From: the human T2T-CHM13v2.0 reference genome, Homo sapiens
DNA length: 64,000 nucleotides
Reading direction: 5' to 3'
NCBI GenBank assembly: GCA_009914755.4
Contig: CP068257.2
Location: 10,816,001 to 10,880,000, forward strand
This document shows, in pieces, positions 30,619 through 64,000 of this stretch. The notes below the pieces were generated by a model. The model was not told the DNA's origin. It was given only the letters and a program-made list of their open reading frames with translations, and searched no databases. Made by a program: the position numbers and the translations under genes. The first letter of the stretch is position 1; every line of letters begins with the position of its first letter.

Positions 30619-33389
30619 TTATATACTGTACATAAAATATGAAAGTAACCAAACATTTATAATAAATTGTACATAAAATATCAAAGTACTCAAACTACAT
30701 ATTATATACAGTATATAAAATATCAAAGTACCCAAAGTGTATATTATATACTGTACATAATATATCAAAGTACCCGAATATATAGCATACTGTACATAAA
30801 ATATCAAATTAGCCAAAATATATATTGTATACTGTACATAAAATATGAAGGTACATCCAAGATATATTATATTGTGTACATAAAATATCAAAGTACACCA
30901 AATATATATTATATGCTGTACATAATATATTAAAGTTGCCCAAATATATATTATATACTGTACATAAAATATGAAGGCACATCAAATATATAGTATATGC
31001 TGCACATAAAATATCAAAGTACCCAAAGTATGTAATATATACTGTACATAACATATCAAAGTACCAAAAGTATATATTACCTACTGTAAATAAAATATGA
31101 AGGTACCTCAAATATACATTATATTCTGTACATAAAATATCAAAGTACACCAAATATATACTATATACTGTACATACAATATTAAATTACCCACAATATG
31201 TATTGTATTGTGTACATAAAATATGAAAGTAACCAAACATTTATAATAAACTGTACATAAAATATCAAAGTACTCAAACTGTATATTATATACTGTACAT
31301 AAAGTATCAAAGTACCCAAACTGTGTAGTATACACTGTACATAAAATATCAAGGTACCCAAAATATATATTGTAAACTGTAGATACGATATCAAATTACC
31401 CAAAATATATATTATATACTGTACATAAAATATGAAGGCACATCCAGTATATATTATATTCTGTACATAAAATATCAAAGTACACCAAATGTATATTATA
31501 TACTGTACATAAAATATAAAAGTACCCCAAGTATATATTATATACTCTACATAAAATATGAAAGTACCCAAAATATATATTATATACTGTACATAAAATA
31601 TCAAAGTACCCATAGTATGTATTATATCCTGTACATAAAATATGAAGGTACATCAAATATATATTATATTCTGCACATAAAATATATTACACCAAATATA
31701 TATTATATACTGTACATAAAATATGAAGGTACATCAAATGTATATTATATGCTGCACATAAAATATCAAAGCCCCAAAGTTTGTATTATATACTGTACAT
31801 AAAATATCAAAGTGTCCAAAGTGTATATTATATACTGTACATAAAATATGAAGGTACATCCGATACATATTATATTCTGTACATAAAATACCAAAGTACA
31901 CCAAGTATATATTATATACTGTACATAAAATATTAAATTACCCGAAATATGTATTGTATACTGTACATAAAATATGAAAGTAACCAAACATTTATAATAA
32001 ACTGTACATAAAATATCAAAGTACTCAAACTACATATTATATACAGTATATAAAATATCAAAGTACCCAAACTGTATATTATATACTGTACATACTATAT
32101 CAAAGTACCCGAATATATAGCATACTGTACATAAAATATCAAAGTACCCAAAATATATATTGTACACTGCACATAAAATATCAAGCTACATCAAAGATAT
32201 ATTATATTCTGTACATAAAATTTCAAAGTACACCAAGTATATATTATATGCTGTGCATAATATATTAAAGTCGACCAAATATATATTACATACTGTACAA
32301 AAAATATGAAGGTACATCAAATATATATTATATGCTGCACATAAAATATCAAAGTACCCAAAGTATGTATTATATACTGTACATAAAATATCAAAATACC
32401 CAAAGTATATATTATATACTATACATACAATATAAAATACCCCAAATATATATTATATGCTGTACATAAAATATCAAAGTACACAAAATATGTATTATGT
32501 ACTGTACATAAAATATCAAAGGACCGAAAATATATATTATATACTGTACATAAAATATCAAAATACCCAAAATATATACTATATACTGTACATAAAATAC
32601 CAAAGTACCCAAAGTATATATTATGTACCGTACAAAAAATATCAAAGTAGCCAAAATATGTATTATACACTGTACATAATATATGAAAGTACCCAAACAT
32701 TTATAATAAACTGTACATAAAATATCAATGTACTCAAACTATATATTATGTTCGGTACATAACATATCAAAGTACCCATACTATATAGTATATACTGTAC
32801 TTAAAATATCAAAATACCCAAAATATATATTATATACGTTACATAAATTATCCAATACCCAAAGTATGTATTATATACTGTACTTAAAATAGCAAAGTTC
32901 CCAAAATATGTATTATACACTGTACATAACAAATGAAAGTACCCAACCATTTATAGTAAACTCTACATAAAATACCAAAGTACCCAAACTGTGTATTATA
33001 TACTGTCCATAAATTATCAAAGTACCCAAAATATATATTGTAAACTGTACATAAAATATCAAAGTAGCCAAAATGTATATTGTATACTGTACATAAAATA
33101 TAAACGTACCCCAAATATATATTATATACTGTACATAAAATATCAAAGTACCCATAATACATATTATATACTGTACATAAAATATCAAAGGACCCAAAAT
33201 AAACATTATATACTGTACATAAAATATGCAAATACTCAAAATATATATTACATACTGTACATAAAATATCAAAGTACCCAAATTATGTATTATATACTGT
33301 ACGTAAAATATCAGATTACCCAAAATATGCATTATATACTGTACATAAAATATGAAAGTAACAAAACATTTATAATAAACTGTACATAA
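30619..33389 (+). repeat. Long-range duplicated block A, copy 1 (partner at 59846-62620, offset 29,227-29,231 bp)
   Basis: Near-identical ORF translations with distinctive private variants. 30619..30891 matches 59846..60118. 31182..31613 matches 60409..60840, both carrying 'GNLISYLQ' and 'VQCILHS'. 32412..32696 matches 61643..61927, both carrying 'YIVYILGILIFYVQYIIYIFGPLIF...ILYCMYSI'. 32991..33389 matches 62222..62620. Confidence 0.7.
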
Positions 33390-35035
33390 AATATCAAAGT
33401 ACTAAAACTATATATCATATACTGTACATAAAATATCAAAGTACCCAAACTGTGTATTATTATATACTGTACATAAAATATCAAGGTACCTAAAATATAT
33501 ATTGCATACTGTACATAAAATATCAAAGTACCCAAAATATATACTATATACTGTACATAAAATATGAAGGTACATCAAATATATATTATATCCTGTACAT
33601 AAAATATCAGAGTACACCTATTATATATTGTGTACTGTACATAATATATTAAATCACCCAAATATATATGTATACTGTATATAAAATATGAAGGTACTTC
33701 AAATATACATTATATGCTGCACATAAAATATCAAAGTACCCAAAGTATGCATTACATACTGTACATAAAATATCAAAGTACACAAATTATATATTATATA
33801 ATGTACATAAAATATGAAGGTTCATAAAATATATTTTATATTCTGTACATAATATATCAAAGTACATCAATTATATATTATATACGGTACATAAAAGATC
33901 AAAGTACCCAAAATATGTATTATTTACTGTACATAAAATATGAAAGTAACCAAACATTTATAATAAACTGTACATAAAATATCAAAGTACTCAATCTACA
34001 TAATATATACAGTATATAAATTATCAAAGTACACAAACTGTATATTATATACTGTACATAATATATCAAAGTACCCAGAATATATAGCATACTGTACATA
34101 AAATATCAAAGTACCCAAAATATATATTGTATACTGTACATAAAATATAAAGGTACATCAAAGATATATTATATTCTGTACATAAAATATCAAATTACAC
34201 CAAATATATATTATATGCTGTACATAATATATTAAAGTTGCCCATATATACATTATATACTGTACATAAAATATGAACGTACATCAAACATATAGTATAT
34301 GCTGCACATATAATATCAAAGTACCCAAAGTATGTATTATACACTGTACATAAAATATCAAAGTACCAAAAGTATATATTACATACTGTAAATAAAATAT
34401 GAAGGTACCTCAAATATATATTATATTCTGTACATAAAACATCAAAGTACACCAAGTATATAGTATATACTCTGCATAAAATATTAAATTACCCACAATA
34501 TGTATTGTATTGTGTACATAAAATATGAAAGTAACCAAACATTTATAATAAACTGTACATAAAATATCAAAGTACTCAAACTGTATATTATATACTGTAC
34601 ATAAAGTATCAAAGTACCCAAACTGTGTAGTATATACTGTACATAAAATATCAAGGTACCCAAAGTATATATTGTAAACTGTAGATAAAATATCAAAGTA
34701 CCCAAAATATATATTCTATACTGTACATAAAATATGAAGGCACATCCAATATATATTATATTCTGTACATAAAATATCAAAGTACACCAAATGTATATTA
34801 TATACTGTACATAAAATATCAAAGTACCCAACGTCTATATTATATACTGTACACAAAATATGAAGGTTCATCAAATATATTTTATATTCTGCACATAATA
34901 TATCAAAGTACATCAAATATATATTATATACTGTACATAAAATATCAAAGTACCAAAAATATGTATTATATACTGTACATAAAATATGAAAGTATCCAAA
35001 CATATATAATAAACTGTACATAAAATATCAAAGTA

Positions 35036-36420
35036 CTCGAACTACATATTATATACAGTATATAAAATGTCAAAGTACCCAAACTCTATATTATATACTG
35101 TACATGGTATATCAAAGTACCCGAATATATAGCATACTGCACATAAAATATCAAAGTACCCAAAGTGTGTATTATACACTGCACATAAAATATGAAGGTA
35201 CATAAAATATATATTGTATTCTGTACATAGAATATCAAAGTACTCCAAATATATATTATATGCTGTACATAATATATTAAAGTTGCCCAAATATATATTA
35301 TATACTGTACATAAAATATGAAGGTACATCAAATATATAGTATATGCTGCACATAAAATATCAAAGTACCCAAAGTATGTATTATATACTGTACATAAAA
35401 TATCAAAGTACCCAAAGTATATATTATATACTGTACATAAAATATAAAATACCCCAAATATATATTATATGCTATACATAAAATATCAAAGTACACAATA
35501 TATGTATTATGTACTGTGCATACCATATCAAAGGACCCAAAATATATATTATATACTGTACATAAAATATCAAAATACCCAAAATATATATTATATACCC
35601 TACATAAAATACCAAAGTACCCAAAGTATATATTATATACCGTACAAAAAATATCAAAGTAGCCAAAATATGTATTCTACACTGTACATAATATATGAAA
35701 GTACCCAAACATTTATAATAAACTGTACATAAAATATCAATGTACTCAAACTATATATTATGTTCGGTACATAAGATATCAAAGTACCCATACTATATAG
35801 TATGTACTGTACTTAAAATATCAAAATACCCAAAATATATATTATATACGTTACATAAACTATCAAATACACAAAGTATGTATTATATACTGTACATAAA
35901 ATAGCAAAGTTCCCAAAATATGTATTATATACTGTACATAACATATGAAAGTACCCAACCATTTATAGTAAACTCTACATAAAATAACAAAGTACCCAAA
36001 CTGTGTATTATATACTGTCCATAAATTATCAAAGTACCCAAAATATATATTGTAAACTGTACATAAAATATCAAAGTAGCCAAAATGTATATTGTATACT
36101 GTACATAAAATATAAACGTACCCCAAATATATATTATATACTGTACATAAAATATCAAAGTACCCATAAAACATATTATATACTGTACATAAAATATCAA
36201 AGGACCCAAAATAAACATTATATACTGTACATAAAATATCCAAATACTCAAAATATATATTACATACTGTACATAAAATATCAAAGTACCCAAATTATGT
36301 ATTATATACTGTAAGTAAAATATCAGAGTACCCAAAATATGCATTATATACTGTACATAAAATATGAAAGTAACAAAACCTTTATAATAAACTGTACATA
36401 AAATATCAAAGTACTCAAAC
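35036..36420 (+). repeat. Long-range duplicated block B, copy 1 (partner at 62636-64000, offset 27,597 bp)
   Basis: Seen: 'tactcgaactacatattatatacagtatataaaatgtcaaagtacccaaactctatattatatactg...' at 35036 and at 62636. ORF 35469..35732 closely matches 63066..63329. ORF 35863..36243 matches 63460..63840, both carrying 'GYFVILCRVYYKWLGTFICYVQ'. ORF 35925..36344 matches 63522..63941, both carrying 'MHILGTLIFYLQ'. Confidence 0.65.
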
Positions 36421-39400
36421 TATATATCATATACTGTACATAAAATATCAAAGTACCCATACTGTGTATTATTATATACTGTCCATAAAATATCAAAGTA
36501 CCTAAAATATATATTGCATACTGTACATAAAATATCAAAGTACCCAAAATATATACTCTATACTGTACATAAAATATGAAGGAACATCAAATATATATTA
36601 TATCCTGTACATAAAATATCAAAGTACACCTATTATATATTGTGTACTGTACATAATATATTAAATCACCCAAATATATATTGTATACTGTATATAAAAT
36701 ATGAAGGTACTTCAAATATATATTATATGCTGCACATAAAATATCAAAGTACCCAAAGTATGCATTACATACTGTACATAAAATATCAAAGTACACAAAT
36801 TATATATTATATAATGTACATAAAATATGAAGGTTCATAAAATATATTTTATATTCTGTACATAATATATCAAAGTACATCAAATATATATTATATACGG
36901 TACATAAAATATCAAAGTACCCAAAATATGTATTATTTACTGTACATAAAATATGAAAGTAACCAAACATTTATAATAAACTGTACATAAAATATCAAAG
37001 TACTCAATCTACATATTATATACAGTATATAAAATATCAAAGTACACAAACTGTATATTATATACTGTATATAATATATCAAAGTACCCAGAATATATAG
37101 CATACTGTACATAAAATATCAAAGTACCCAAAATATATATTGTATACTGTACATAAAATATAAAGGTACATCAAAGATATATTATATTCTGTACATAAAA
37201 TATCAAATTACACCAAATATATATTATATGCTGTACATAATATATTAAAGTTGCCCATATATACATTATATACTGTACATAAAATATGAAGGTACATCAA
37301 ATATATAGTATATGCTGCACATATAATATCAAAGTACCCAAAGTATGTATTATACACTGTACATAAAATATCAAAGTACCAAAAGTATATATTACATACT
37401 GTAAATAAAATATGAAGGTACCTCAAATATATATTATATTCTGTACATAAAATATCAAAGTACACCAAGTATATAGTATATACTCTGCATAAAATATTAA
37501 ATTACCCACAATATGTATTGTATTGTGTACATAAAATATGAAAGTAACTAAACATTTATAATAAACTGTACATAAAATATCAAAGTACTCAAACTGTATA
37601 TTATATACTGTACATAAAGTATCAAAGTACCCAAACTGTGTAGTATATACTGTACATAAAATATCAAGGTACCCAAAATATATATTGTAAACTGTAGATA
37701 AAATATCAAAGTACCCAAAATATATATTATATACTGTACATAAAATATGAAGGCACATCCAATATATATTATATTCTGTACATAAAATATCAAAGTACAC
37801 CAAATGTATATTATATACTGTACATAAAATATCAAAGTACCCAACGTGTATATTATATACTGTACACAAAATATGAAGGTTCATCAAATATATTTTATAT
37901 TCTGCACATAATATATCAAAGTACATCAAATATATATTTATACTGTACATAAAATATCAAAGTACCAAAAATATGTATTATATACTGTACATAAAATATG
38001 AAAGTAACCAAACATATATAATAAACTGTACATAAAATATCAAAGTACTCGAACTACATATTATATACAGTATATAAAATGTCAAAGTACCCAAACTCTA
38101 TATTATATACTGTACATAATATATCAAAGTACCCGAATATATAGCATACTGTACATAAAATATCAAAGTACCCAAAATATATATTGTATACTGTACATAA
38201 AATATGAAGGTACATCAAAGATATATTATATACTGTACATGAAATATCAAAGTACCGATAATACATATTATATACTGTACATAAAATATCAAAGGACCCA
38301 AAATAAACATTATATACTGTACATAAAATATTCAAATACTCAAAATATATATTACATACTGTACATAAAATATCAAAGTACCCAAATTATGTATTATATA
38401 CTGTACGTAAAATATCAGCGTACCCAAAATATGCATTATATGCTGCACATAAAATATGAAAGTAACAAAACATTTATAATAAACTGTACATAAAATATCA
38501 AAGTACTCAAACTATATATCATATACTGTACATAAAATGTCAAAGTACCCAAACTGTGTATTATTATATACTGTATATAAAATATTAAAATACCTGAAAT
38601 ATATATTGCATACTGTACATAAAATATCAAAGTACCCAAAATATATACTATATACTGTACATAAAATATGAAGGTACATCAAATATATATTACATCCTGT
38701 ACATAAAATAACAACGTACACCTATTATATATTGCGTACTGTACATAATATATTAAATCGCCCAAATATATATTGTATACTGTATATAAAATATGAAGGT
38801 ACTTCAAATATATATTATATGCTGCACATAAAATATCAAAGTACCCAAAGTATGCATTACATACTGTACATAAAATATCAAAGTACACAAATTATATATT
38901 ATATACTGTACATAAAATATGTAGGTTCATCAAATATATTTTATATTCTGTACATAATATATCAAAGTACATCAAATATATATTATATACGGTACATAAA
39001 ATATCAAAGTACCCAAAATATGTATTATTTACTGTTCATAAAATATGAAAGTAACCAAACATTTATAATAAACTGTACACAAAATATCAAAGTACTCAAT
39101 CTACATATTATATACAGTATATAAAATATCAAAGTACACAAACTGTATATTATATACTGTACATAATATATCAAAGTACCCAGAATATATAGCATACTGT
39201 ACATAAAATATCAAATTACCCAAAATATATATTGTATACTGTACATAAAATATGAAGGTACATCAAAGATATATTATATTCTGTACATAAAATATCAAAG
39301 TACACCAAATATATATTATATGCTGTACATAATATATTAAAGTTGCCCATGTATACATTTTATACTGTACATAAAATATGAAGGTACATCAAATATATAG

Positions 39401-42400
39401 TATATGCTGCACATAAAATATCAAAGTACCCAAAGTATGTAATATATACTGTACATAATATATCAAAGTACCAAAAGTATATATTACATACTGTAAATAA
39501 AATATGAAGGTACCTCAAATATACATTATATTCTGTACATAAAATATCAAAGTACACCAAATATATACTATATACTGTACATAAAATATTAAATTACCCA
39601 CAATATGTATTTTATTCTGTACATAAAATATGAAAGTAACCAATCATTTATAATAAACTGTACATAAAATATCAAAGTACTCAAACTGTATATTATATAC
39701 TGTACATAAAGTATCAAAGTACCCAAACTGTGTAGTATATACTGTACATAAAATATCAAGGTACCCAAAATATATATTGTAAACTGTAGAAAAAATATCA
39801 AAGTACCCAAAATATATATTATATACTGTACATAAAATATGAAGGCACATCCAGTATATATTATATTCTGTACATAAAATATCAAAGTACACCAAATGTA
39901 TATTATATACTGTACATAAAATATAAAATACCCCAAATATATATTATATACTGTACATAAAATATCAAAATACCCATAGTATGTATTATATCCTGTACAT
40001 AAAATATGAAGGTACATCTAATATATATTATATTCTGCACATAAAATATCATATTACACCAAATATATATTATATACTGTACATAAAAGATGAAAGTACA
40101 TCAAATATATATTATATGCTGCACATAAAATATAAAAGTCCCCAAAGTTTGTATTATATTCTGTACATAAAATATCAAAGTATCCAAAGTGTATATTATA
40201 TACTGTACATAAAATATGAAGGTACATCCGATACATATTATATTCTGTACATAAAATATCAAACTACACCAAGTATATATTATATACTGTATATAAAATA
40301 TTAAATTACCCAAAATATGTATTGTATACTGTACATAAAATATGAAAGTATCCAAACATTTATAATAAACTGTACATAAAATATCAAAGTACTCAAACTG
40401 TGTATTATATACTGTACATAAAGCATCAAAGTACCCAAACTGTGTAGCATATACTGTACATAAAATATCAAGGTACCCAAAATATATAGTGTAAACTGTA
40501 GATAAAATATCAAAGTACCCAAAGTATACATTATATACTCTACATAAAATATCAAAATACGCAAAATATATATTGTATACTGTACATAAAATATCAAAGT
40601 ATCCAAACTATATATTATGTACTGTACATAAAATATCAAAGTACCCAAAGTGTGTATTATACACTGCATATAAAATATGAAGGTACATAAAATATATATT
40701 GTATTCTGTACATAAAATATCAAATTACACCAAATATATATTATATGCTGTACATAATATATTAAAGTTGCCGAAATATATATTATATACTGTACATAAA
40801 ATATGAAGGTAAATCAAATATATAGTATATGCTGCACATAAAATATCAAAGTACCCAAAGTATGTATTATATACTGTACATAAAATATCAAAGTACCCAA
40901 AGTATATATTATATACTGTACATAAAATATAAAATACCCCAAATATATATTATGTGCTGTACATAAAATATCAAAGTACACAAAATATGTATTATGTACT
41001 GTACATACAATATCAAAGGACCCAAAATATATATTATATACTGTACATAAAATATCAAAATATCCAAAATATATATTATATACTGTACATAAAATACCAA
41101 AGTACCCAAAGTATATATTATATACCGTACAAAAAATATCAAAGTAGCCAAAATATGTATTATACACTGTACATAATATATGAAAGTACCCAAACATTTA
41201 TAATAAACTGTACAAAAAATATCAATGTACTCAAACTATATATTATGTGCGGTACATAAGATATCAATGTACCCATACTATATAGTATATACTGTACTTA
41301 AAATATCAAAATATCCAAAATATATATTATATACGTTACATAAACTATCAAATACACAAAGTATGTATTATATACTGTACATAAAATAGCAAAGTTCCCA
41401 AAATATGTATTATATACTGTACATAAAATATGAAAGTACCCAACCATTTATAATAAACTCTACATAAAATACCAAAGTACCCAAACTGTGTATTATATAC
41501 TGTCCATAAAATATCAAAGTACCCAAAATATATATTGTAAACTGTACATAAAATATCAAAGTAGCCAAAATATATATTGTATACTGTACATAAAATATAA
41601 AATACCCCAAATATATATTATATACTGTACATAAAATATCAAAGTACCCATAATACATATTATATACTGTACATAAAATATCAAAGGACCCAAAATAAAC
41701 ATTATATACTGTACATAAAATATCCAAATACTCAAAATATATATTACATACTGTACATAAAATATCAAAGTACCCAAATTATGTATTATATACTGTACGT
41801 AAAATATCAGAGTACCCAAAATATGCATTATATACTGTACATAAAATATGAAAGTAACAAAACATTTATAATAAACTGTACATAAAATATCAAAGTACTA
41901 AAACTATATATAATATACTGTACATAAAATATCAAAGTACCCAAACTGTGTATTATTATATACTGTCCATAAAATATCAAGGTACCTAAAATATATATTG
42001 CATACTGTACATAAAATATCAAAGTACCCAAAATATATACTATATACTGTACATAAAATATGAAGGTACATCAAATATATATTATATCCTGTACATAAAA
42101 TATCAAAGTACACCTATTATATATTGTGTACTGTACATAATATATTAAATCACCCAAATATATATTGTATACTGTATATAAAATATGAAGGTACTTCAAA
42201 TATATATTATATGCTGCACATAAAATATCAAAGTACCCAAAGTATATATTGTATACTGTACATAAAATATAAAGGTACATCAAAGATATATTATTTTCTG
42301 TACATAAAATATCAAATTACACCAAATATATATTATATGCTGTACATAATATATTAAAGTTGCCCATATATACATTATATACTGTACATAATATATGAAC

Positions 42401-45400: not shown

Positions 45401-47424
45401 TACATAAAGTATCAAAGTACCCAAACTGTGCTGTATATACTGTACATAAAATATCAAGGTACCCAAAATATATATTGTAAACTGTAGATAAAATATCAAA
45501 GTACCCAAAATATATATTATATACTGTACATAAAATATGAAGGCACATCCAGTATATATTATATTCTGTACATAAAATATCAAAGTACACCAAATGTATA
45601 TTATATACTGTACATAAAATATAAAAGTACCCCAAGTATATATTATATACTCTACATAAAATATGAAAGTACCCAAGATATATATTATATACTGTACATA
45701 AAATATCAAAATACCCATAGTATGTATTATATGCTGTACATAAAATATGAAGGTACATCAAATATATATTATATTCTGCACATAAAATATCATATTACAC
45801 CAAATATATATTATATACTGTACATAAAAGATGAAAGTACATCAAATATATATTATATGCTGCACATAAAATATAAAAGTCCCCAAAGTTTGTATTATAT
45901 ACTGTACATAAAATATCAAAGTATCCAAACTGTATATTATATACTGTACATAAAATATGAAGGTACATCCGATACATATTATATTCTGTACATAAAATAT
46001 CAAAGTACACCAAGTATATATTATATACTGTACATAAAATATTAAATTACCCAAAATATGTATTGTATACTGTACATAAAATATGAAAGTAACCAAACAT
46101 TTATAATAAACTGTACATAAAATATCAAAGTACTCAAACTGTGTATTATATACTGTACATAAAGCATCAAAGTACCCAAACTGTGTAGCATATACTGTAC
46201 ATAAAATATCAAGGTACCCAAAATATATAGTGTAAACTGTAGATAAAATATCAAAGTACACAAAGTATACATTATATACTCTACATAAAATATCAAAATA
46301 CGCAAAATATATATTGTATACTGTACATAAAATATCAAAGTATCCAAACTATATATTATGTACTGTACATAAAATATCAAAGTACCCAAAGTGTGTATTA
46401 TACACTGCATATAAAATATGAAGGTACATAAAATATATATTGTATTCTGTACATAAAATATCAAATTACACCAAATATATATTATATAGTGTACATAATA
46501 TATTAAAGTCTACCAAATATATATTATATACTGTACATAAAATAAGAAGGTACATCAAATATATATTATATGCTGCACATAAAATATCAAAGTACCCAAA
46601 GTATGTATTATATACTGTACATAAAATATCAAAGTACCCAAAGTATATATTATATACTGTACATAAAATATAAAATACCCCAAATATATATTATATGCTG
46701 TACATAAAATATGAAAGTACACAAAATATGTATTATGTACTGTACATACAATATCAAAGGACACAAAATATATATTATATACTGTACATAAAATATCAAA
46801 ATACCCAAAATATATATTATATACTGTACATAAAATACCAAAGTACCCAAAGTATATATTATATACCGTACAAAAAATATCAAAGTAGCCAAAATATGTA
46901 TTATACACTGTACATAATATATGAAAGTACCCAAACATTTATAATAAACTGTACATAAAATATCAAAGTACTCAAACTGTATATTATATACTGTACATAA
47001 AGTATCAAAGTACCCAAACTGTGTAGTATATACTGTACATAAAATATCAAGGTACCCAAAATATATATTGTAAACTGTAGATAAAATATCAAAGTACCCA
47101 AAATATATATTATATACTGTACATAAAATATGAAGGCACATCCAGTATATATTATATTCTGTACATAAAATATCAAAGTACACCAAATGTATATTATATA
47201 CTGTACATAAAATATAAAAGTACCCCAAGTATATATTATATACTCTACATAAAATATGAAAGTATCCAAAATATATATTATAGACTGTACATAAAATATC
47301 AAAGTACCCAAAGTGTATATTATATACTGTACATAAAATATGAAGGTTCATCAAATATATTTTATATTCTGCACATAATATATAAAAGTACAGCAAATAT
47401 ATATTATATACTGTACATAAAATA

Positions 47425-52000: not shown

Positions 52001-55000
52001 ACACCAAGTATATACTATATACTCTGCAACAAATATTAAATTACCCAAAATATGTACTGTATTGTGTACATAAAATATGAAAGTAACCAAACATTTATAA
52101 TAAACTGTACATAAAATATCAAAGTACTCAAACTGTATATTATATACTGTACATAAAGTATCAAAGTACCCAAACTGTGTAGTATATACTGTACATAAAA
52201 TATCAAGGTACCCAAAATATATATTGTAAACTGTAGATAAATTATCAAAGTACCCAAAATATATATTATATACTGTACATAAAATATGAAGGCACATCCA
52301 ATATATATTATATTCTGTACATAAAATATCAAAGTACACCAAATGTATATTATATACTGTACATAAAATATCAAAGTACCCAAAGTGTTTATTATATACT
52401 GTACATAAAATATGAAGGTACATCAAAGATATATTATATTCTGTACATAAAATATCAAAGTACACCAAGTATATATTATATGCTGTACATAATATATTAA
52501 AGTCGACCAAATATATATTACATACTGTACATAAAATATGAAGGTACATCAAATATATATTATATGCTGCACATAAAATATCAAAGTACCCAAAGTATGT
52601 ATTATATACTCTACATAAAATATCAAAGTACCCAAAGTATATATTATATACTGTACATAAAATATAAAATACCCCAAATATATATTTTATGCTGTACATA
52701 AAATATCAAAGTACACAAAATATGTATTATATACTGTGCATAAAATATCAAAGGACCCAAAATATATATTATATACTGTACATAAAATATCAAAATACCC
52801 AAAATATATATTATATACTGTACAGAAAATACCAAAGTACCCAAAGTATATATTATATACCGTACAAAAAATATCAAAGTAGCCAAAATATGTATTATAC
52901 ACTGTACATAATATATGAAAGTACCCAAACATTTATAATAAACTGTACATAAAATATCAATGTACTCAAACTATATATTATGTGCGGTACATAAGATATC
53001 AAAGTACCCATACTATATAGTATGTACTGTACTTAAAATATCAAGATACCCAAAATATATATTATATACGTTACATAAACTATCAAATACACAAAGTATG
53101 TATTATATACTGTACATAAAATAGCAAAGTTCCCAAAATATGTATTATATACTGTACATAAAATATGAAAGTACCCAAACATTTATAATAAACTCTACAT
53201 AAAATACCAAAGTACCCAAACTGTGTATTATATACTGTCCATAAATTATCAAAGTACCCAAAATATATATTGTAAACTGTACATAAAATATCAAAGTAGC
53301 CAAAATGTATATTGTATACTGTACATAAAATATAAACGTACCCCAAATATATATTATGTACTGCACATAAAATATCAAAGTACCCATAATACATATTATA
53401 TACTGTACATAAAATATCAAAGGACCCAAAATAAACATTATATACTGTACATAAAATATCCAAATACTCAAAATATATATTACATACTGTACATAAAATA
53501 TCAAAGTACCCAAATTATGTATTATATACTGTACGTAAAATATCACAGTACCCAAAATATGCATTGTATACTGTACATAAAATATGAAAGTAGCAAAACA
53601 TTTATAATAAACTTTACATAAAATATCAAAGTACTAAAACTATATATCATATACTGTACCTAAAATATCAAATTACCCAAACTGTATATTATTATATACT
53701 GTCCATAAAATAACAAAGTACCTGAAATATATATTGTATACTGTACATAAAATATCAAAGTACCCAAAATATATACTATATACTGTACATAAAATATGAA
53801 GTTACATCAAATATATATTATATCCTGTACATAAAATATCAAAGTACACCTATTATATATTGTGTACTGTACATAATATATTAAATCCCCCAAATATATA
53901 TTGTATACTGTATATAAAATATGAAGGTACTTCAAATATATATTATATGCTGCACATAAAATATCAAAGTACCCAAAGTATGCATTACATACTGTACATA
54001 AAATATCAAAGTACACAAATTATATATTATATACTGTACATAAAATATGAAGGTTCATAAAATATATTTTATATTCTGTACATAATATATCAAAGTACAT
54101 CAAATATATATTATATACGGTACATAAAATATCAAAGTACCCAAAATATGTATTATTTACTGTACATAAAATATGAAAGTAACCAAACATTTATAATAAA
54201 CTGTACATGAAATATCAAAGTACTCAATCTACATATTATATACAGTATATAAAATATCAAAGTACACAAACTGTATATTATATACTGTACATAATATATC
54301 AAAGTACCCAGAATATATAGCATACTGTACATAAAATATCAAAGTACCCAAAATGTATATTGTGTACTGTACATAAAATATAAAGGTACATCAAAGATAT
54401 ATTATATTCTGTACATAAAATATCAAATTACACCAAGTATATATTATATGCTGTACATAATATATTAAAGTTGCCCATATATACATTATACACTTTACAT
54501 AAAATATGAACGTACATCAAATATATAGTATATGCTGCACATAAAATATCAAAGTACCCAAAGTATGTATTATACACTGTACATAAAATATCAAAGTACC
54601 AAAAGTATATATTGCATACTGTAAATAAAATATGAAGGTAACTGAAATATATATTATATTCTGTACATAAAATATAAAAGTACACCAAGTATAAACTACA
54701 TACTCTGCATAAAATATTAAATTACCCAAAATATGTATTGTATTGTGTACATAAAATATGAAAGTAACCAAACATTTATAATAAACTGTACATAAAATAT
54801 CAAAGTACTCAAACTGTATATTATATACTGTACATAAAGTATCAAAATACCCAAACTGTGTAGTATATACTGTACATAAAATATCAAGGTACCCAAAATA
54901 TATATTGTAAACTGTAGATACAATATCAAAGTACCCAAAATATATATTATATACTGTACATAAAATATGAAGGCACATCCAATATATATTATATTCTGTA

Positions 55001-58000
55001 CATAAAATATCAAAGTACACCAAATGTATATTATATACTGTACATAAAATATAAAAGTACCCCGAATATATATTATATACTCTACATAAAATATCAAAGT
55101 ACCCAAAATAGATATTATATACTGTACATAAAATATCAAAGTACCCATAGTATGTATTATATCCTGTACATAAAATATGAAGGTACATCAAATATATATT
55201 CTATTCTGCACATAAAATATCATATTACACCAAATATATATTGTATACTGTATATAAAATATGAAGGTACTTCAAATACATATTATATGCTGCACATAAA
55301 ATATCAAAGTACCGAAAGTGTGCATTATATGCTGTACATAAAATATCAAAGTACCCAAAGTGTATATTATATACTGTACATAAAATGTGAAGGTTCATCA
55401 AATATATTTTATATTCTGCACATAATATATCAAAGTACATCAAATATATATTATATACTGTACATAAAATATTAAAGTACCAAAAATATGTATTATATAC
55501 TGTACATAAAATATGAAAGTAACCAAACATTTATAATAAACTGTACATAAAGTATCAAAGTACTCAAACTACATATTATATACAGTATATAAAATATCAA
55601 AGTACCCAAACTGTATATTATATACTGTACATAATATATCAAAGTACCCAAATATATAGCATACTGTACATAAAATATTAAAGTACCCAAAATATATATT
55701 GTATACTGTACATAAAATATGAAGGTACATCAAAGATATATTATATCCTGTACATAAAATATCAAAGTACACCAAATATATATTATATGCTGTACATAAT
55801 ATATTAAAGTCGAACAAATATATATTATATACTGTACATAAAATATGAAGGTACATCAAATATATATTATATGCTGCACATAAAATATCAAAGTACCCAA
55901 AGTATGTATTATATACTGTACATAAAATATCAAAGTACCCAAAGTATATATTATATACCGTATATAAAATATAAAATACCCCAAATATATATTATATGCT
56001 GTACATAAAATATCAAAGTACACAAAATATTTATTATACACTGTACATAAAATATCAACGGACCCAAAATATATATTATATACTGTACATAAAATATCAA
56101 AATATCCAAAATATATATTATATACTGTACATAAAATACCAAAGTACCCAAAGTATATATTATATACCGTACAAAAAATATCAAAGTAGCCAAAATATGT
56201 ATTATACACTGTACATAATATATGAAAGTACCCAAACATTTATAATAAACTGTACATAAAATATCAATGTACTCAAACTATATATTATGTGCGGTACATA
56301 AGATATCAAAGTACCCATACTATATAGTATATACTGTACTTAAAATATCAAAATACCCAAAATATATATTATATACGTTACATAAACTATCAAATACACA
56401 AAGTATGTATTATATACTGTACATAAAATAGCAAAGTTCCCAAAATATGTATTATATACTGTACATAAAATATGAAAGTACCCAACCATTTATAATAAAC
56501 TCTACATAAAATACCAAAGTACCCAAACTGTGTATTATATACTGTCCATAAAATATCAAAGTACCCAAAATATATATTGTAAACTGCACATAAAATATCA
56601 AAGTAGCCAAAATATATATTGTATACTGTACATAAAATATAAACGTACCCCAAATATGTATTATATACTGTACATAAAATATCAAAGTACCGATAATACA
56701 TATTATATGCTGTACATAAAATATCAAAGGACCCAAAATAAACATTATATACTGTACATAAAATATCCAAATACTCAAAATATATATTACATACTGTACA
56801 TAAAATATCAAAGTACCCAAATTATGTATTATATACTGTACGTAAAATATCAGAGTACCCAAAATATGCATTATATACTGTACATAAAATATGAAAGTAA
56901 CAAAACATTTATAATAAACTGTACATAAAATATCAAAGTACTCAAACTATATATCATATACTGTACATAAAATATCAAAGTACCCAAACTGTGTATTATT
57001 GTATACTGTATATAAAATATCAAAGTACCTGAAATATATATTGTATACTGTACATAAAGTATCAAAGTACCCAAAACATATACTCTATACTGTACATAAA
57101 ATATGAAGGTACATCAAATATATCTTATATCCTGTACATAAAATATCAAAGTACACCTATTATATATTGTGTACTGTACATAATATATTAAATCACCCAA
57201 ATATATATTGTACACTGTATATAAAATATGAAGGTACTTCAAATGTATATTATATGCTGCACATAAAATATCAAAGTACCCAAAGTATGCATTACATACT
57301 GTAAATAAAATATGAAGGTACCTCAAATATATATTATATTCTGTACATAAAATATCAAAGTACACCAAGTATATACTATATACTCTGCATAAAATATTAA
57401 ATTACCCACAATATGTATTGTATTGTGTACATAAAATGTGAAAGTAACCAAACATTTATAATAAACTGTACATAAAATATCAAAGTACTCAAACTGTATA
57501 TTATATACTGTACATAAAGTATCAAAGTACCCAAACTGTGTAGTATATACTGTACATAAAATGTCAAGGTACGCAAAATATATATTGTAAACTGTAGATA
57601 AAATATCAAAGTACCCAAAATATATATTATATACTGTACATAAAATATGAAGGCACATCCAATATATATTATATTCTGTACATAAAATATCAAAGTACAC
57701 CAAATGTATATTATACACTGTACATAAAATATCAAAGTACCCAACGTGTATATTATATACTGTACACAAAATATGAAGGTTCATCAAATATATTTTATAT
57801 TCTGCACATAATATATCAAAGTACATCAAATATATATCATATACTGTACATAAAATATCAAAGTACCAAAAATATGTATTATATACTGTACATAAAATAT
57901 GAAAGTAACCAAACATATATAATAAACTGTACATAAAATATCAAAGTACTCGAACTACATATTATATACAGTATATAAAATGTCAAAGTACCCAAACTCT

Positions 58001-59845
58001 ATATTATATACTGTACATAATATATCAAAGTACCCGAATATATAGCATACTGTACATAAAATATCAAATTACCCAAAGTGTGTATTATACACTGCACATA
58101 AAATATGAAGGTACATAAAATATATATTGTATTCTGTACATAAAATATCAAAGTACTCCAAATATATATTACATGCTGTACATAATATATTAAAGTTGCC
58201 CAAATATATATTATATACTGTACATAAAATATGAAGGTACATCAAATATATAGTATATGCTGCACATAAAATATCAAAGTACCCAAAGTATGTATTATAT
58301 ACTGTACATAAAATATCAAAGTACCCAAAGTATATATTATATACTGTACATAAAATATAAAATACCCCAAATATACATTATATGCTGTACATAAAATATC
58401 AAAGTACACAAAATATGTATTATGTACTGTGCATAAAATATCAAAGGACCCAAAATATATATTATATACTGTAGATAAAATATCAAAATACCCAAAATAT
58501 ATATTATATACCCTACATAAAATACCAAAGTACAGAAAGTATATATTATATACCGTACAAAAAATATCAAAGTAGCCAAAATATGTATTATACACTGTAC
58601 ATAATATATGAAAGTACCCAAACATTTATAATAAACTGTACATAAAATATCAATGTACTCAAACTATATATTATGTTCGGTACATAAGATATCAAAGTAC
58701 CCATACTATATAGTATGTACTGTACTTAAAATATCAAAATACCCAAAATATATATTATATACGTTACATAAACTATCAAATACACAAAGTATGTATTATA
58801 TACTGTACATAAAATAGCAAAGTTCCCAAAATATGTATTATATACTGTACATAAAATATGAAAGTACCCAACCATTTATAATAAACTCTACATAAAATAC
58901 CAAAGTACCCAAACTGTGTATTATATACTGTCCATAAAATATCAAAGTACACAAAATATATATTGTCAACTGTACATAAAATATCAAAGTAGCCAAAATA
59001 TATATAGTATACCGTACATAAAATATAAAATTACCCCAAATATATATTATATACTGTACATAAAATATCAAAGTACCGATAATACATATTATATACTGTA
59101 CATAAAATATCAAAGGACCCAAAATAAACATTATATACTGTACATAAAATATTCAAATACTCAAAATATATATTACATACTGTACATAAAATATCACACT
59201 ACCCAAATTATGTATTATATACTGTACGTAAAATATCAGAGTACCCAAAATATGCATTATATACTGCACATAAAATATGAAAGTAACAAAACATTTATAA
59301 TAAACTCTACATAAAATATCAAAGTACTCAAACTATATATCATATACTGTACATAAAATGTCAAAGTACCCAAACTGTGTATTATTATATACTGTATATA
59401 AAATATCAAAATACCTGAAATATATATTGCATACTGTACATAAAATATCAAAGTACCCAAAATATATACTATATACTGTACATAAAATATGAAGGTACAT
59501 CAAATATATATTATATCCTGTACATAAAATATCAAACTACACCTATTAGATATTGTGTACTGTACATAATATATTAAATCCCCCAAATATATATTGTATA
59601 CTGTATATAAAATATGAAGGTACTTCAAATTCATATTACATGCTGCACATAAAATATCAAACTACCCAAGGTATGCATTATATACTGTACATAAAATATC
59701 AAAGTACACAAATTATATATTATATACTGTACATAAAATATGAAGGTTCATCAAATATATTTTATATTCTGTACATAATATATCAAAGTACATCAAATAT
59801 ATATTATATACGGTACATAAAATATCAAAGTACCAAAAATATGTA

Positions 59846-62620
59846 TTATATACTGTACATAAAATATGAAAGTAACCAAACATTCATAATAAATTGTACA
59901 TAAAATATCAAAGTACTCAAACTACATATTATATACAGTATATAAAATATCAAAGTACACAAACTGTATATTATATACTGTACATAATATATCAAAGTAC
60001 CCGAATATATAGCATACTGTACATAAAATATCAAAGTACCCAAAATATATATTGTATACTGTACATAAAATATGAAGGTACATCGAAGATATATTATATT
60101 GTGTACATAAAATATCAAAGTACACCAAATATATATTATATGCTGTACATAATATATTAAAGTTGCCCAAATATATATTATATACTGTACATAAAATATG
60201 AAGGCACATCAAATATATAGTATATGCTGCACATAAAATATCAAAGTACCCAAAGTATGTAATATATACTGTACATAACATATCAAAGTACCAAAAGTAT
60301 ATATTACCTACTGTAAATAAAATATGAAGGTACCAGAAATATACATTATATTCTGTACATAAAATATCAAAGTACACCAAATATATACTATATACTGTAC
60401 ATACAATATTAAATTACCCACAATATGTATTGTATTGTGTACATAAAATATGAAAGTAACCAAACATTTATAATAAACTGTACATAAAATATCAAAGTAC
60501 TCAAACTGTATATTATATACTGTACATAAAGTATCAAAGTACCCAAACTGTGTAGTATACACTGTACATAAAATATCAAGGTACCCAAAATATATATTGT
60601 AAACTGTAGATACGATATCAAATTACCCAAAATATATATTATATACTGTACATAAAATATGAAGGCACATCCAGTATATATTATATTCTGTGCATAAAAT
60701 ATCAAAGTACACCAAATGTATATTATATACTGTACATAAAATATAAAAGTACCCCAAGTATATATTATATACTCTATATAAAATATGAAAGTACCCAAAA
60801 TATATATTATATACTGTACATAAAATATCAAAGTACCCATAGTATGTATTATATCCTGTACATAAAATATGAAGGTACATCAAATATATATTATATTCTG
60901 CACATAAAATATCATATTACACCAAATATATATTATATACTGTACATAAAATATGAAGGTACATCAAATGTATATTATATGCTGCACATAAAATATCAAA
61001 GTCCCCAAAGTTTGTATTATATACTGTACATAAAATATCAAAGTATCCAAAGTGTATATTATATACTGTACATAAAATATGAAGGTACATCCGATACATA
61101 TTATATTCTGTACATAAAATATCAAAGTACACCAAGTATATATTATATACTGTACATAAAATATTAAATTACCCGAAATATGTATTGTATACTGTACATA
61201 AAATATGAAAGTAACCAAACATTTATAATAAACTGTACATAAAATATCAAAGTACTCAAACTACATATTATATACAGTATATAAAATATCAAAGTACCCA
61301 AACTGTATATTATATACTGTACATACTATATCAAAGTACCCGAATATATAGCATACTGTACATAAAATATCAAAGTACCCAAAATATATATTGTACACTG
61401 CACATAAAATATGAAGCTACATCAAAGATATATTATATTCTGTACATAAAATATCAAAGTACACCAAATATATATTATATGCTGTACATAATATATTAAA
61501 GTCGACCAAATATATATTACATACTGTACAAAAAATATGAAGGTACATCAAATATATATTATATGCTGCACATAAAATATCAAAGTACCCAAAGTATGTA
61601 TTATATACTGTACATAAAATATCAAAATACCCAAAGTATATATTATATACTATACATACAATATAAAATACCCCAAATATATATTATATGCTGTACATAA
61701 AATATCAAAGTACACAAAATATGTATTATGTACTGTACATAAAATATCAAAGGACCGAAAATATATATTATATACTGTACATAAAATATCAAAATACCCA
61801 AAATATATACTATATACTGTACATAAAATACCAAAGTACCCAAAGTATATATTATATACCGTACAAAAAATATCAAAGTAGCCAAAGTATGTATTATACA
61901 CTGTACATAATATATGAAAGTACCCAAACATTTATAATAAACTGTACATAAAATATCAATGTACTCAAACTATATATTATGTTCGGTACATAACATATCA
62001 AAGTACCCATACTATATAGTATATACTGTACTTAAAATATCAAAATACCCAAAATATATATTATATACGTTACATAAATTATCCAATACCCAAAGTATGT
62101 ATTATATACTGTACTTAAAATAGCAAAGTTCCCAAAATATGTATTATATACTGTACATAACAAATGAAAGTACCCAACCATTTATAGTAAACTCTACATA
62201 AAATACCAAAGTACCCAAACTGTGTATTATATACTGTCCATAAATTATCAAAGTACCCAAAATATATATTGTAAACTGTACATAAAATATCAAAGTAGCC
62301 AAAATGTATATTGTATACTGTACATAAAATATAAACGTACCCCAAATATATATTATATACTGTACACAAAATATCAAAGTACCCATAATACATATTATAT
62401 ACTGTACATAAAATATCAAAGGACCCAAAATAAACATTATATACTGTACATAAAATATCCAAATACTCAAAATATATATTACATACTGTACATAAAATAT
62501 CAAAGTACCCAAATTATGTATTATATACTGTACGTAAAATATCAGAGTACCCAAAATATGCATTATATACTGTACATAAAATATGAAAGTAACCAAACAT
62601 TTATAATAAACTGTACATAA
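59846..62620 (+). repeat. Long-range duplicated block A, copy 2
   Basis: See copy 1 at 30619-33389. The offset is a constant 29,227 bp up to about 32.4 kb, then 29,231 bp (a 4-bp indel). Confidence 0.7.
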
Positions 62621-62635
62621 AATATCAAAGTACTC

Positions 62636-64000
62636 GAACTACATATTATATACAGTATATAAAATGTCAAAGTACCCAAACTCTATATTATATACTGTAC
62701 ATAATATATCAAAGTACCCGAATATATAGCATACTGTACATAAAATATCAAAGTACCCAAAGTGTGTATTATACACTGCACATAAAATATGAAGGTACAT
62801 AAAATATATATTCTATTCTGTACATAGAATATCAAAGTACTCCAAATATATATTATATGCTGTACATAATATATTAAAGTTGCCCAAATATATATTATAT
62901 ACTGTACATAAAATATGAAGGTACATCAAATATATAGTATATGCTGCACATAAAATATCAAAGTACCCAAAGTATGTATTATATACTGTACATAAAATAT
63001 CAAAGTACCCAAAGTATATATTATATACTGTACATAAAATATAAAATACCCCAAATATATATTATATGCTGTACATAAAATATCAAAGTACACAAAATAT
63101 GTATTATGTACTGTGCATACAATATCAAAGGACCCAAAATATATATTATATACTGTACATAAAATATCAAAATACCCAAAATATATATTATATACCCTAC
63201 ATAAAATACCAAAGTACCCAAAGTATATATTATATACCGTACAAAAAATATCAAAGTAGCCAAAATATGTATTGTACACTGTACATAATATATGAAAGTA
63301 CCCAAACATTTATAATAAACTGTACATAAAATATCAATGTACTCAAACTATATATTATGTTCGGTACATAAGATATCAAAGTACCCATACTATATAGTAT
63401 GTACTGTACTTAAAATATCAAAATACCCAAAATATATATTATATACGTTACATAAACTATCAAATACACAAAGTATGTATTATATACTGTACATAAAATA
63501 GCAAAGTTCCCAAAATATGTATTATATACTGTACATAACATATGAAAGTACCCAACCATTTATAGTAAACTCTACATAAAATAACAAAGTACCCAAACTG
63601 TGTATTATATACTGTCCATAAATTATCAAAGTACCCAAAATATATATTGTAAACTGTACATAAAATATCAAAGTAGCCAAAATGTATATTGTATACTGTA
63701 CATAAAATATAAACGTACCCCAAATATATATTATATACTGTACATAAAATATCAAAGTACCCATAATACATATTATATACTGTACATAAAATATCAAAGG
63801 ACCCAAAATAAACATTATATACTGTACATAAAATATCCAAATACTCAAAATGTATATTACATACTGTACATAAAATATCAAAGTACCCAAATTATGTATT
63901 ATATACTGTAAGTAAAATATCAGAGTACCCAAAATATGCATTATATACTGTACATAAAATATGAAAGTAACAAAACCTTTATAATAAACTCTACATAAAA
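62636..64000 (+). repeat. Long-range duplicated block B, copy 2 (truncated by the window end)
   Basis: See copy 1 at 35036-36420. Blocks A and B are contiguous here at 62620/62636, but about 1.63 kb apart in the first occurrence. Confidence 0.65.

What the first reader, a model, noticed from the sequence alone, without database searches (positions are those of the whole stretch)
30619..64000. Near-identical multi-kb blocks about 27.6-29.2 kb apart, differing by a 1.63-kb indel with breakpoints in homologous monomers
Seen: 30619-33389 matches 59846-62620 (offset 29,227 to 29,231) and 35036-36420 matches 62636-64000 (offset 27,597). The shared variants are private, not found in other HOR copies ('GNLISYLQ', 'ILYCMYSI', 'GTFICYVQ', 'MHILGTLIFYLQ'). 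In the second occurrence the two blocks are contiguous. In the first they are separated by about 1,633 bp (about 33.36-35.0 kb). Both junctions fall inside the same 'atgaaagtaaccaaacatttataataaactgtacataaaatatcaaagtact' monomer type. That is what unequal homologous exchange between out-of-register monomers would leave. This suggests either a super-HOR of about 28-29 kb or a recent intra-array segmental duplication. The 64-kb window is too short to tell which.
Basis: seen in the sequence. Interest (0 to 1): 0.6.

Follow-up and report, generated by a model that had tools for sequence, protein, structure and literature searches.

The report
Recent duplication inside HSat1A-type satellite array
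Two stretches of a 42-bp AT-rich satellite array (most likely human satellite 1A), about 29 kb apart, are 99.2% identical and differ by a 1,634-bp deletion whose ends lie in matching repeat units; this is the ordinary way such arrays grow and shrink, not a new kind of element.

Summary
30,619-33,389 matches 59,846-62,620 at 99.2% (23 substitutions, 2 small indels). 35,039-36,403 matches 62,636-64,000 at 99.2% (11 substitutions). Other in-register copies reach only 95.6-97.4%. The two offsets differ by 1,634 bp.

Copy 2 switches cleanly from A-type to B-type sequence inside a 33-bp stretch identical at both copy-1 junctions. That stretch lies in a recurrent "marker" monomer. Copy 1 keeps the canonical sub-block order and both parental markers, and copy 2 carries the hybrid marker. 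The 1,634 bp was therefore most likely deleted in copy 2 by out-of-register homologous exchange.

The window is a 42-bp satellite array with GC 22%, probably human HSat1A. From about 17 kb it is organised in 3.3-kb higher-order repeats built of about 0.59-kb sub-blocks.

The pair is not unique. Similar recent blocks lie 0.53, 5.7 and 8.58 kb apart. No third unit exists to the left, and copy 2 runs off the window end. A 29-kb super-repeat is therefore unsupported but not excluded.

Verdict: an ordinary intra-array segmental duplication or exchange. Low interest.

The parts
1..2135 (.). TA-rich low-complexity flank outside the satellite array
   Evidence: TRF finds a 16-bp TA-type repeat at 5-645, and the 42-bp array starts at 2136. 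The sequence was read at 1741-2400.
2136..15700 (+). Outer, diverged part of the 42-bp satellite array, without the 3.3-kb HOR
   Evidence: Best non-self 1-kb matches are only 90-96%. Mapping onto the reference HOR is ambiguous at 92% or less.
17132..64000 (+). Homogeneous 3.3-kb HOR domain. The canonical unit is sub-blocks a-b-c-d-e-f (589+585+755+709+250+419 = 3,307 bp), each starting with a marker monomer. Many length variants are present.
   Evidence: Marker monomer positions; phase mapping at 96-99% to the reference copy 26297-29603; copy-to-copy identity of 96-99.8%.
30524..33403 (+). Copy 1, block A (sub-blocks b*, c, d, ef; markers at 30645, 31229, 31980, 32689)
   Evidence: 99.2% identical to 59751-62634. 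Reciprocal nearest neighbours with exclusive shared variants.
33404..35037 (+). Segment X: 1,634 bp present only in copy 1. It equals sub-blocks a, b and c' (588+585+461 bp). Its closest relatives are 36417-38050 (98.65%) and 29062-30691 (97.98%).
35038..36403 (+). Copy 1, block B (sub-blocks d, ef; markers at 34992, 35701)
   Evidence: 1354/1365 identical to 62636-64000. The next-best copy is 97.4%.
59751..62634 (+). Copy 2, block A' (b*, c, d, ef; markers at 59872, 60456, 61211, 61920)
62602..62634 (+). Crossover interval in copy 2: 33 bp (TATAATAAACTGTACATAAAATATCAAAGTACT) identical to both 33371-33403 and 35005-35037. It lies inside the hybrid marker monomer that starts at 62589.
   Evidence: All but 2 of 29 informative sites to the left (33201-33370) follow A, and all 17 to the right follow B. 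Three-way display.
62635..64000 (+). Copy 2, block B' (d, ef), truncated by the window end
17030..21198 (+). Comparison case: another recent block pair, matching 25606-29779 at 8,576/8,581 bp spacing (98.4% overall). Sub-block ef at 19765 is identical over 669 bp to the one at 28346.
47433..49025 (+). Comparison case: three tandem 532-bp units at 99.8% identity

Best explanation
The window is a 42-bp AT-rich satellite array, most likely human satellite 1A (HSat1A, formerly called SAR). Its inner part consists of 3.3-kb higher-order repeats (HORs). Each HOR is made of six paralogous sub-blocks, a to f, averaging about 0.55 kb (250-755 bp). Each sub-block begins with the same 'marker' monomer.

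A segment of at least 5.9 kb (b* c d ef a b c' d ef) exists in two direct copies 29.2 kb apart. They were produced by a relatively recent intra-array duplication or exchange: misaligned but HOR-register pairing of sister chromatids or homologues, or a replication-based copy. Both copies have since diverged by about 0.8%.

In the copy-2 lineage, during or after that event, a second out-of-register homologous exchange occurred. It joined the marker monomer at the start of sub-block a to the marker at the start of the next sub-block d. This removed a+b+c' (1,634 bp, about 39 monomers) and left a hybrid marker monomer.

Shown: the identity, the exclusive shared variants, the breakpoint interval, the sub-block arithmetic, and the existence of other such pairs.

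Inferred: the mechanism (unequal homologous exchange), the polarity of the indel, and the human HSat1A assignment.

No cellular function is implied. This is satellite-array turnover.
For: The array:
- 42-bp period, 1,481 copies, 80% monomer identity; GC 21-23%.
- 109 marker monomers where 0 are expected by chance, spaced 589/585/755/709/250/419 bp.

The pair:
- 99.2% identity on both sides of the indel, against 95.6-97.4% to other copies.
- Reciprocal nearest neighbours in six consecutive sub-blocks, with 29 exclusive shared variants.
- Direct orientation only; no inverted repeats of 1 kb or more.
- Equal divergence of blocks A and B (23/2771 and 11/1365) indicates one event.

The junction:
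- Clean A-to-B switch within a 33-bp identical core, which is the longest identical run in the homologous flank.

Polarity of the indel:
- Copy 1 has the canonical order ef|a b c'|d. It also has both parental marker variants, GTAACAAAAC (a-type) and GTATCCAAACATATAT (d-after-c' type).
- Copy 2 has the unique adjacency ef|d, seen nowhere else in the window.
- An independent contig, L053, carries the A-type private variants followed by an X segment.

Context:
- Other non-canonical adjacencies also sit at marker monomers: b|d at 24706 and c'|b* at 30645.
- Comparable recent pairs exist at other spacings.
- Published work shows HSat1A arrays are structurally very unstable: a 6,763-bp de novo deletion in one transmission and a six-fold array expansion. 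Unequal crossover and gene conversion are the accepted drivers.
Against: - The right end of the duplicated segment is not visible, so its size and type (tandem, dispersed or conversion) are open.
- The left boundary gives no polarity. The a-tail and c'-tail are nearly identical for the last 126 bp before the marker. The copy-2 context (a|b*) looks canonical, while the copy-1 context (c'|b*) does not.
- L053 comes from a metagenome assembly and may be a chimeric path through repeats. Its X and B parts are only 97.4% identical to copy 1 (X) and 98.3% identical to copy 2 (B).
- 0.8% divergence is not very recent in absolute terms unless the local mutation rate is raised.
- The HSat1A and human assignment rests on period, composition, literature descriptions and matches to human-associated metagenome contigs. 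I could not align the window to the SAR consensus or to a human assembly.
Confidence: 0.78

Rival explanations
1. The pair is the start of a full tandem duplication of a ~29.2-kb unit. Unit 1 would be about 30.5-59.7 kb and unit 2 would run from 59.7 kb to about 87 kb. It would have formed by one unequal crossover between b* at 30.6 kb and an in-register b at 59.8 kb.
For: - The spacing equals the distance between the two left boundaries by construction.
- In-register pairing would leave exactly the canonical-looking a|b* junction seen at the left edge of copy 2.
- Identity is still 99.2% at the last base of the window.
Against: - Untestable in the window, because only 4.25 kb of copy 2 is visible.
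- The other recent pairs in the window mostly cover only 36-58% of their spacing: 4.17 of 8.58 kb, about 3.0 of 5.7 kb, 1.99 of 5.48 kb. Partial tracts are therefore the local norm.
Confidence: 0.25
2. A true super-HOR or macro-repeat: three or more units of about 28-29 kb repeated regularly along the array.
For: - A-type private variants occur in two independent metagenome contigs, L053 and L032. This is compatible with more than two A-type copies in human genomes.
- Macro-repeats are known in alpha-satellite arrays.
Against: - No unit exists to the left. Positions 1.3-30.5 kb hold the array edge, diverged monomers and different HOR variants.
- There is no dominant 29-kb lag in the autocorrelation: 0.405 against a baseline of 0.336, below the 33,156 lag at 0.54.
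- The contigs could equally be allelic versions of the same two loci.
Confidence: 0.1
3. Long-tract gene conversion (non-reciprocal copying) homogenised two pre-existing HOR copies. No new DNA was created.
For: - Conversion is an accepted homogenising force in satellites.
- Six of the 34 substitutions between the copies lie in the first ~215 bp after the marker. One site near the indel junction (62594) carries the B-type base within A-type sequence. Both are compatible with patchy repair.
Against: - The tract would be 4.3 kb or more. At the copy-1 locus it would have had to insert about 1.3 kb (b* tail plus c) relative to the canonical order c'|d.
- 27 of the 34 differences are alleles unique to one copy rather than alleles borrowed from other copies.
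Confidence: 0.15
4. The 1,634 bp was inserted in copy 1 rather than deleted in copy 2.
For: Segment X is 98.65% identical to the next HOR copy at 36417-38050, which could be a donor.
Against: - Starting from A-B-X2, a single unequal crossover gives A-B-X2-B-X2 or a deletion. It does not give A-X-B-X2, so insertion needs two events.
- Copy 1 has the canonical order and unrecombined markers, while the hybrid marker is in copy 2.
- L053 shows A followed by X.
Confidence: 0.08
5. Assembly artefact: a false duplication, or a false join that produced the indel.
For: Satellite arrays are error-prone to assemble, and no read data were available.
Against: - The copies differ at 34 substitutions and 2 indels spread along 4.1 kb. 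A falsely duplicated segment would be near-identical.
- Both arrangements use sub-block junctions typical of the array.
- Copy-1-like A-X-B order is seen in an independent contig.
Confidence: 0.03

Closest known systems
Human satellite 1A (HSat1A; RepeatMasker 'SAR'; classical satellite I, probe pTRI-6)
   Same: - 42-bp monomer and GC about 22-23%, which places it among the most AT-rich satellites.
- Long head-to-tail arrays with higher-order structure.
- The marker 30-mer occurs exactly in 57 metagenome contigs, some labelled human gut or oral. These contigs match the window at 97-98.6% over kilobases.
   Different: - The published predominant periodicity for the chr13 array is a 378-bp 9-mer. 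This window has about 0.59-kb 14-mer sub-blocks and a 3.3-kb HOR, with no 378-bp signal. It is therefore another array or sub-family (candidates: chr3, chr4 or an acrocentric array).
- The chromosome could not be assigned.
Alpha-satellite HOR arrays with HOR-haplotypes, local recent duplications and macro-repeats (T2T-CHM13 centromere maps)
   Same: - Units are much more alike than the monomers within them.
- Structural HOR variants arise from monomer-register exchanges.
- Zones of recent duplication sit inside older sequence, with more diverged layers at the array edge (for this window).
   Different: - A different satellite family with a 42-bp rather than 171-bp monomer.
- No CENP-B box or kinetochore role is implied.
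- The scale here is a few kb to 29 kb.
Unequal crossing-over model of tandem-array evolution (Smith 1976; from my own knowledge) and de novo HSat1A or alpha-satellite indels seen in pedigrees
   Same: - Direct repeats.
- A deletion equal to an integral number of sub-blocks.
- Breakpoints inside homologous monomers, leaving a hybrid monomer.
- Kilobase-scale HSat1A deletions have been observed in a single transmission.
   Different: Here the event is inferred from sequence alone. Sister-chromatid exchange, interhomologue exchange and replication template switching cannot be told apart.

Membership tests
HSat1A (SAR) satellite | 42-bp tandem monomer | tested here: met
   TRF: period 42, 1,480.8 copies, positions 2136-64000. 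The strongest autocorrelation lag is 42.
HSat1A (SAR) satellite | Extreme AT richness (GC about 23%) | tested here: met
   GC is 0.21-0.23 in every 2-kb bin. The literature value is 23%.
HSat1A (SAR) satellite | Sequence similarity to the SAR/pTRI-6 consensus (alternating 17-bp A and 25-bp B units) | not testable with these tools
String searches of the paper library found nothing. From memory only, the consensus CCCAAAATATATATTATATACTGTACATAAAATATCAAAGTA resembles satellite I.
HSat1A (SAR) satellite | Human (hominid) genomic origin | tested here: inconclusive
   Exact marker matches occur in 57 metagenome contigs, including ones labelled human gut or oral. These contigs are 97-98.6% identical to the window over 1-4.8 kb. 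One of them (L045) spans the array edge at 1316-4232. This is consistent with human host DNA, but no human assembly could be searched.
Higher-order repeat (HOR) array | Multi-monomer units more similar to each other than the monomers within a unit | tested here: met
   Monomers are about 80% alike. In-register 3.3-kb units are 96-99.8% alike.
Segmental duplication plus unequal homologous exchange within an array | Two direct copies significantly closer to each other than to all paralogues, with shared derived variants | tested here: met
   99.2% against 97.4% or less. 29 exclusive shared variants and reciprocal nearest neighbours in 6 of 6 sub-blocks.
Segmental duplication plus unequal homologous exchange within an array | Indel breakpoints in homologous sequence, with a hybrid repeat at the junction | tested here: met
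   33-bp identical core at 33371-33403 = 35005-35037 = 62602-62634, with a clean parental switch.
Super-HOR / macro-repeat of about 29 kb | Three or more units at regular spacing, with colinear identity across the whole unit | tested here: not met
   No unit lies to the left of 30.5 kb. Only 4.25 kb of a second unit is visible. Nothing beyond 64,000 can be examined, so the feature is not met within the window and is untestable beyond it.

The most novel reading that the evidence does not exclude
The two blocks are the first visible units of a regular macro-repeat of about 29 kb (a super-HOR of about nine HOR units) in an HSat1A array, continuing beyond the window. The 1.63-kb deletion would then be a unit-specific variant. 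This would show that HSat1A arrays expand by multi-HOR cassettes, as some alpha-satellite arrays do.
Probability: 0.1. Interest if true: 0.3.

Novelty: already known. Interest (0 to 1): 0.13.

Why it matters
It matters little beyond documentation. The finding is a clean, base-resolved example of how a human-type AT-rich satellite array turns over. Multi-kb blocks are copied within the array. Sub-block-sized pieces are lost by exchange at the most conserved (marker) monomer.

Such maps can help date expansions and define HOR-haplotypes in HSat1A, which has been studied less than alpha satellite. The mechanism and the pattern are both textbook.

Tried and rejected
- **Whole-window megablast against itself** returned only the self hit. 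A blastn run on chunks timed out. I replaced these with chunked megablast and my own seed chaining.
- **The repeat finder** on 30-64 kb was swamped by monomer-level families. It only showed that there are no inverted repeats of 1 kb or more (one search was a parameter error). One pile-up run failed on unsupported BLAST gap costs and was repeated successfully.
- **Searching the paper library** for the monomer sequence on either strand found nothing relevant. No supplements are held for the HSAT1 paper.
- **A viral-contig scan** for the marker monomer gave 0 hits.
- **Contig L029** first looked like an independent copy of the ef|d junction. Gapped comparison showed it is a more diverged variant, about 92% identical to everything, and says nothing about that junction.
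- **The 'd-head/b-tail hybrid' reading.** From ungapped phase mapping I first read the first sub-block of block A as such a hybrid. On that reading copy 2's left junction looked like the novel one. Gapped alignment showed it is an ordinary b with a 3-bp deletion. I withdrew that reading, and the left boundary gives no polarity.
- **Ungapped autocorrelation** is blurred by the many indels and does not resolve long periods.
Full report
**What the window is**

Positions 1-2135 are TA-rich low-complexity sequence. From 2136 to the end, TRF reports one uninterrupted tandem array. It has a 42-bp period, 1,481 copies and 80% identity between monomers. The consensus is CCCAAAATATATATTATATACTGTACATAAAATATCAAAGTA. 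GC is 21-23% throughout, with a constant strand bias (GC skew about -0.3, AT skew about +0.19).

Period, composition and array form match published descriptions of human satellite 1A (HSat1A, 'SAR'). That family has a 42-bp unit made of 17-bp and 25-bp parts and GC of 23%. Its arrays lie on chromosomes 3, 4, 13 and the other acrocentrics.

I could not align the window to the family consensus, because string searches of the literature found nothing. However, a distinctive 30-mer from the array occurs exactly in 57 metagenome contigs. Several are labelled human gut or oral metagenomes. These contigs match the window at 97-98.6% over 1-4.8 kb. One of them (L045) spans the array edge at 1316-4232. 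Human host DNA is the natural reading.

**Internal organisation**

A 'marker' monomer variant (GTAACCAAACATTTATAATAAACTGTACAT, up to 3 mismatches) occurs 109 times where 0 are expected by chance. From about 17.1 kb onward its spacing follows a repeating pattern of 589, 585, 755, 709, 250 and 419 bp. I call these sub-blocks a to f; together they make 3,302-3,307 bp.

Mapping 168-bp windows onto one reference unit (26297-29603) gives 96-99% identity with unambiguous phase from 17.0 kb to the end. Between 2.1 and about 16 kb the identity is 92% or less and the phase is ambiguous. The window therefore runs from a flank, through an older diverged layer, into a homogeneous 3.3-kb HOR domain.

Many units are length variants:
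- c' = c minus 294 bp
- d' = d minus about 205 bp
- b|d adjacency at 24706
- 838-bp intervals
- three tandem 532-bp units at 47.4-49.0 kb

**The observation**

Global alignment confirms both block pairs.
- 30619-33389 vs 59846-62620: 2748 matches, 23 mismatches, and two small insertions in copy 2. These explain the drift in offset from 29,227 to 29,231.
- 35039-36403 vs 62636-64000: 1354 of 1365 identical, with no gaps.

Seed chaining extends block A slightly, to 30508-33403 vs 59735-62634 (99.10%). The diagonal scan shows that near-perfect identity starts at about 30,524.

Other colinear copies match block A at 96.1, 95.6 and 95.6%. They match block B at 97.4% or less.

I aligned every sub-block type across all its copies. 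The two copies are reciprocal nearest neighbours in all six consecutive sub-blocks:

| Sub-block | Divergence between the two copies | Divergence to the next-closest copy |
|---|---|---|
| b | 1.37% | 2.9% |
| c | 0.53% | 2.7% |
| d | 0.85% | 3.2% |
| ef | 0.60% | 1.9% |
| d | 1.41% | 2.3% |
| ef | 0.30% | 1.2% |

They share 29 variants found in no other copy in the window.

**The indel**

The two offsets differ by 1,634 bp. This equals sub-blocks a+b+c' of copy 1 (588+585+461 bp).

I compared copy 2 with the two copy-1 junctions at every site where those junctions differ. Copy 2 follows the A side at 27 of 29 informative sites up to 62601. It follows the B side at all 17 informative sites from 62635 onward.

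The interval between these points is a 33-bp stretch identical at 33371-33403 and 35005-35037. It is the longest identical run in a flank that is otherwise 83-93% alike in register. It lies in the marker monomer.

Copy 1 shows the canonical order ef|a b c'|d and keeps both parental marker variants. The ef|d adjacency and the hybrid marker occur only in copy 2.

A single unequal exchange turns A-X-B into A-B. Turning A-B-X2 into A-X-B-X2 needs two events.

An independent contig, L053 (4,773 bp), carries ten clusters of A-type private variants.
- It has 5 mismatches in 1,920 bp against copy 2 and 12 against copy 1.
- It takes the non-unique allele at most sites where the two copies differ, as expected of their common ancestor.
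- It continues into an X segment.

Caveat: L053 may be a chimeric assembly path, and its X and B parts are only 97.4% identical to copy 1 (X) and 98.3% identical to copy 2 (B).

I conclude, at roughly 0.9 against 0.1, that the 1,634 bp was deleted in the copy-2 lineage. Blocks A and B have the same divergence (0.83% and 0.81%). This indicates one duplication event, with the deletion at or after it.

**The left boundary**

I first read the first sub-block of block A as a d/b hybrid. Gapped alignment shows it is an ordinary b carrying a 3-bp deletion, which I call b*.

Copy 2 sits in a canonical context (f a | b*). Copy 1 sits in a non-canonical one (a b c' | b*). The last 126 bp of a and c' are almost identical. 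The boundary therefore cannot be placed more precisely than about 30.52-30.59 kb. It also gives no direction.

A tandem duplication by in-register pairing of b* (30.6 kb) with a b at 59.8 kb would leave exactly this picture. A dispersed copy or a long conversion tract would leave the same picture.

**Is it a super-HOR?**

Within the window the answer is no.
- There is no unit to the left.
- Copy 2 is cut off after 4.25 kb.
- The autocorrelation has no dominant 29-kb lag.

The pair is also one of several recent block pairs at unrelated spacings:

| Pair | Spacing | Identity |
|---|---|---|
| 17030-21198 / 25606-29779 | 8.58 kb | 98.4% overall; one 669-bp sub-block identical |
| 38271-41214 / 43969-46955 | 5.7 kb | about 98.5% |
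| 22751-24738 / 28234-30216 | 5.48 kb | 98.9% |
| 32329-35139 / 35341-38151 | 3.01 kb | 98.1% |
| 47433-49025 (532-bp triplet) | 0.53 kb | 99.8% |

Most of these cover only about a third to a half of their spacing. The local norm is therefore a patchwork of partial copies.

I give about 0.25 to a full two-unit 29-kb tandem duplication. I give about 0.1 to a regular macro-repeat of three or more units.

**After the duplication**

Of the 34 substitutions between the copies, 27 are alleles unique to one copy (19 in copy 1, 8 in copy 2). Only 5 involve alleles that both occur in other copies. The differences are therefore mostly new changes rather than borrowed variants.

Transitions to transversions are 16:18. 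This is in line with the low Ti/Tv reported for HSat1A.

The age can only be bracketed, as a rough inference.
- With the short-arm de novo rate of 1.33e-7 per bp per generation, 0.8% divergence corresponds to about 3e4 generations.
- With a genome-average rate (my own knowledge), the figure would be about ten times more.

**Comparison with what is known**

HSat1A arrays are documented as highly dynamic. Reports include a 6,763-bp de novo deletion in one transmission, a six-fold array expansion, and variable numbers of insertions on chromosome 4.

HORs in HSat1 were reported from T2T-CHM13, with periodicity that varies along arrays and hyper-local expansion. Unequal crossover and conversion are the accepted drivers.

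The 3.3-kb HOR and 14-mer organisation here differs from the 378-bp 9-mer described for the chr13 array. This is likely another array or sub-family. That is a matter of cataloguing, not of kind.

**Verdict**

The unequal-exchange reading of the indel is supported and refined. The super-HOR idea is unsupported in the window and only testable with more sequence. The phenomenon is ordinary satellite-array turnover.

Noticed in passing
window 1-2135 and 2136-17100: The window contains the left edge of the array. A TA-rich simple-sequence flank comes first. Next is about 14 kb of diverged monomers, with best paralogue matches of only 90-96% at local spacings of about 1.25, 1.83, 2.57, 3.8 and 5.65 kb. 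Three 630-bp units follow (markers at 15871, 16501, 17132) before the homogeneous 3.3-kb HOR domain starts. The result is a layered, older-outside pattern.
   Followed up: partly
window 47433-49025: Three tandem 532-bp units (markers at 47472, 48004, 48536) are 99.8% identical. This is the youngest event in the window.
   Followed up: partly
window 19765-20433 vs 28346-29014: A 669-bp sub-block (e+f) is identical base for base in two HOR copies 8,581 bp apart. It lies inside a 4.2-kb block pair (17030-21198 / 25606-29779) that is 98.4% identical overall. This duplication or conversion is younger than the one in the finding.
   Followed up: partly
window, marker monomers (109 sites, e.g. 24706, 30645, 62589): About 126 bp before and 130 bp after each marker monomer are almost identical among all six sub-block types. 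Several non-canonical adjacencies (b|d, c'|b*, ef|d) sit exactly there. This conserved core may act as the preferred site for out-of-register exchange. I did not test it statistically.
   Followed up: partly
L053 (OUNP010000315.1), L032 (SDBS01267428.1), L045 (VNIW01003077.1): Metagenome contigs carry this satellite, presumably as host contamination. L053 and L032 hold the A-type private variants. L045 spans the array edge (window 1316-4232) at 98.6%. Some variants that are pair-specific within the window (around 32487-32515, 35235-35268 and 31057-31102) are common in many contigs, so they are widespread elsewhere in the family.
   Followed up: partly
window 2136-64000: There is a constant strand asymmetry (C over G, skew about -0.3; A over T, about +0.19), and all repeats are in one orientation. 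No inversion or transposon interruption occurs anywhere in the 62 kb of array.
   Followed up: no
window 30645-30860 vs 59872-60087: Six of the 23 substitutions between the A blocks fall in the first 215 bp after the marker, several of them in pairs (30732/30737, 30809/30812). This may be a patch of later micro-conversion or the heteroduplex end of the exchange.
   Followed up: no
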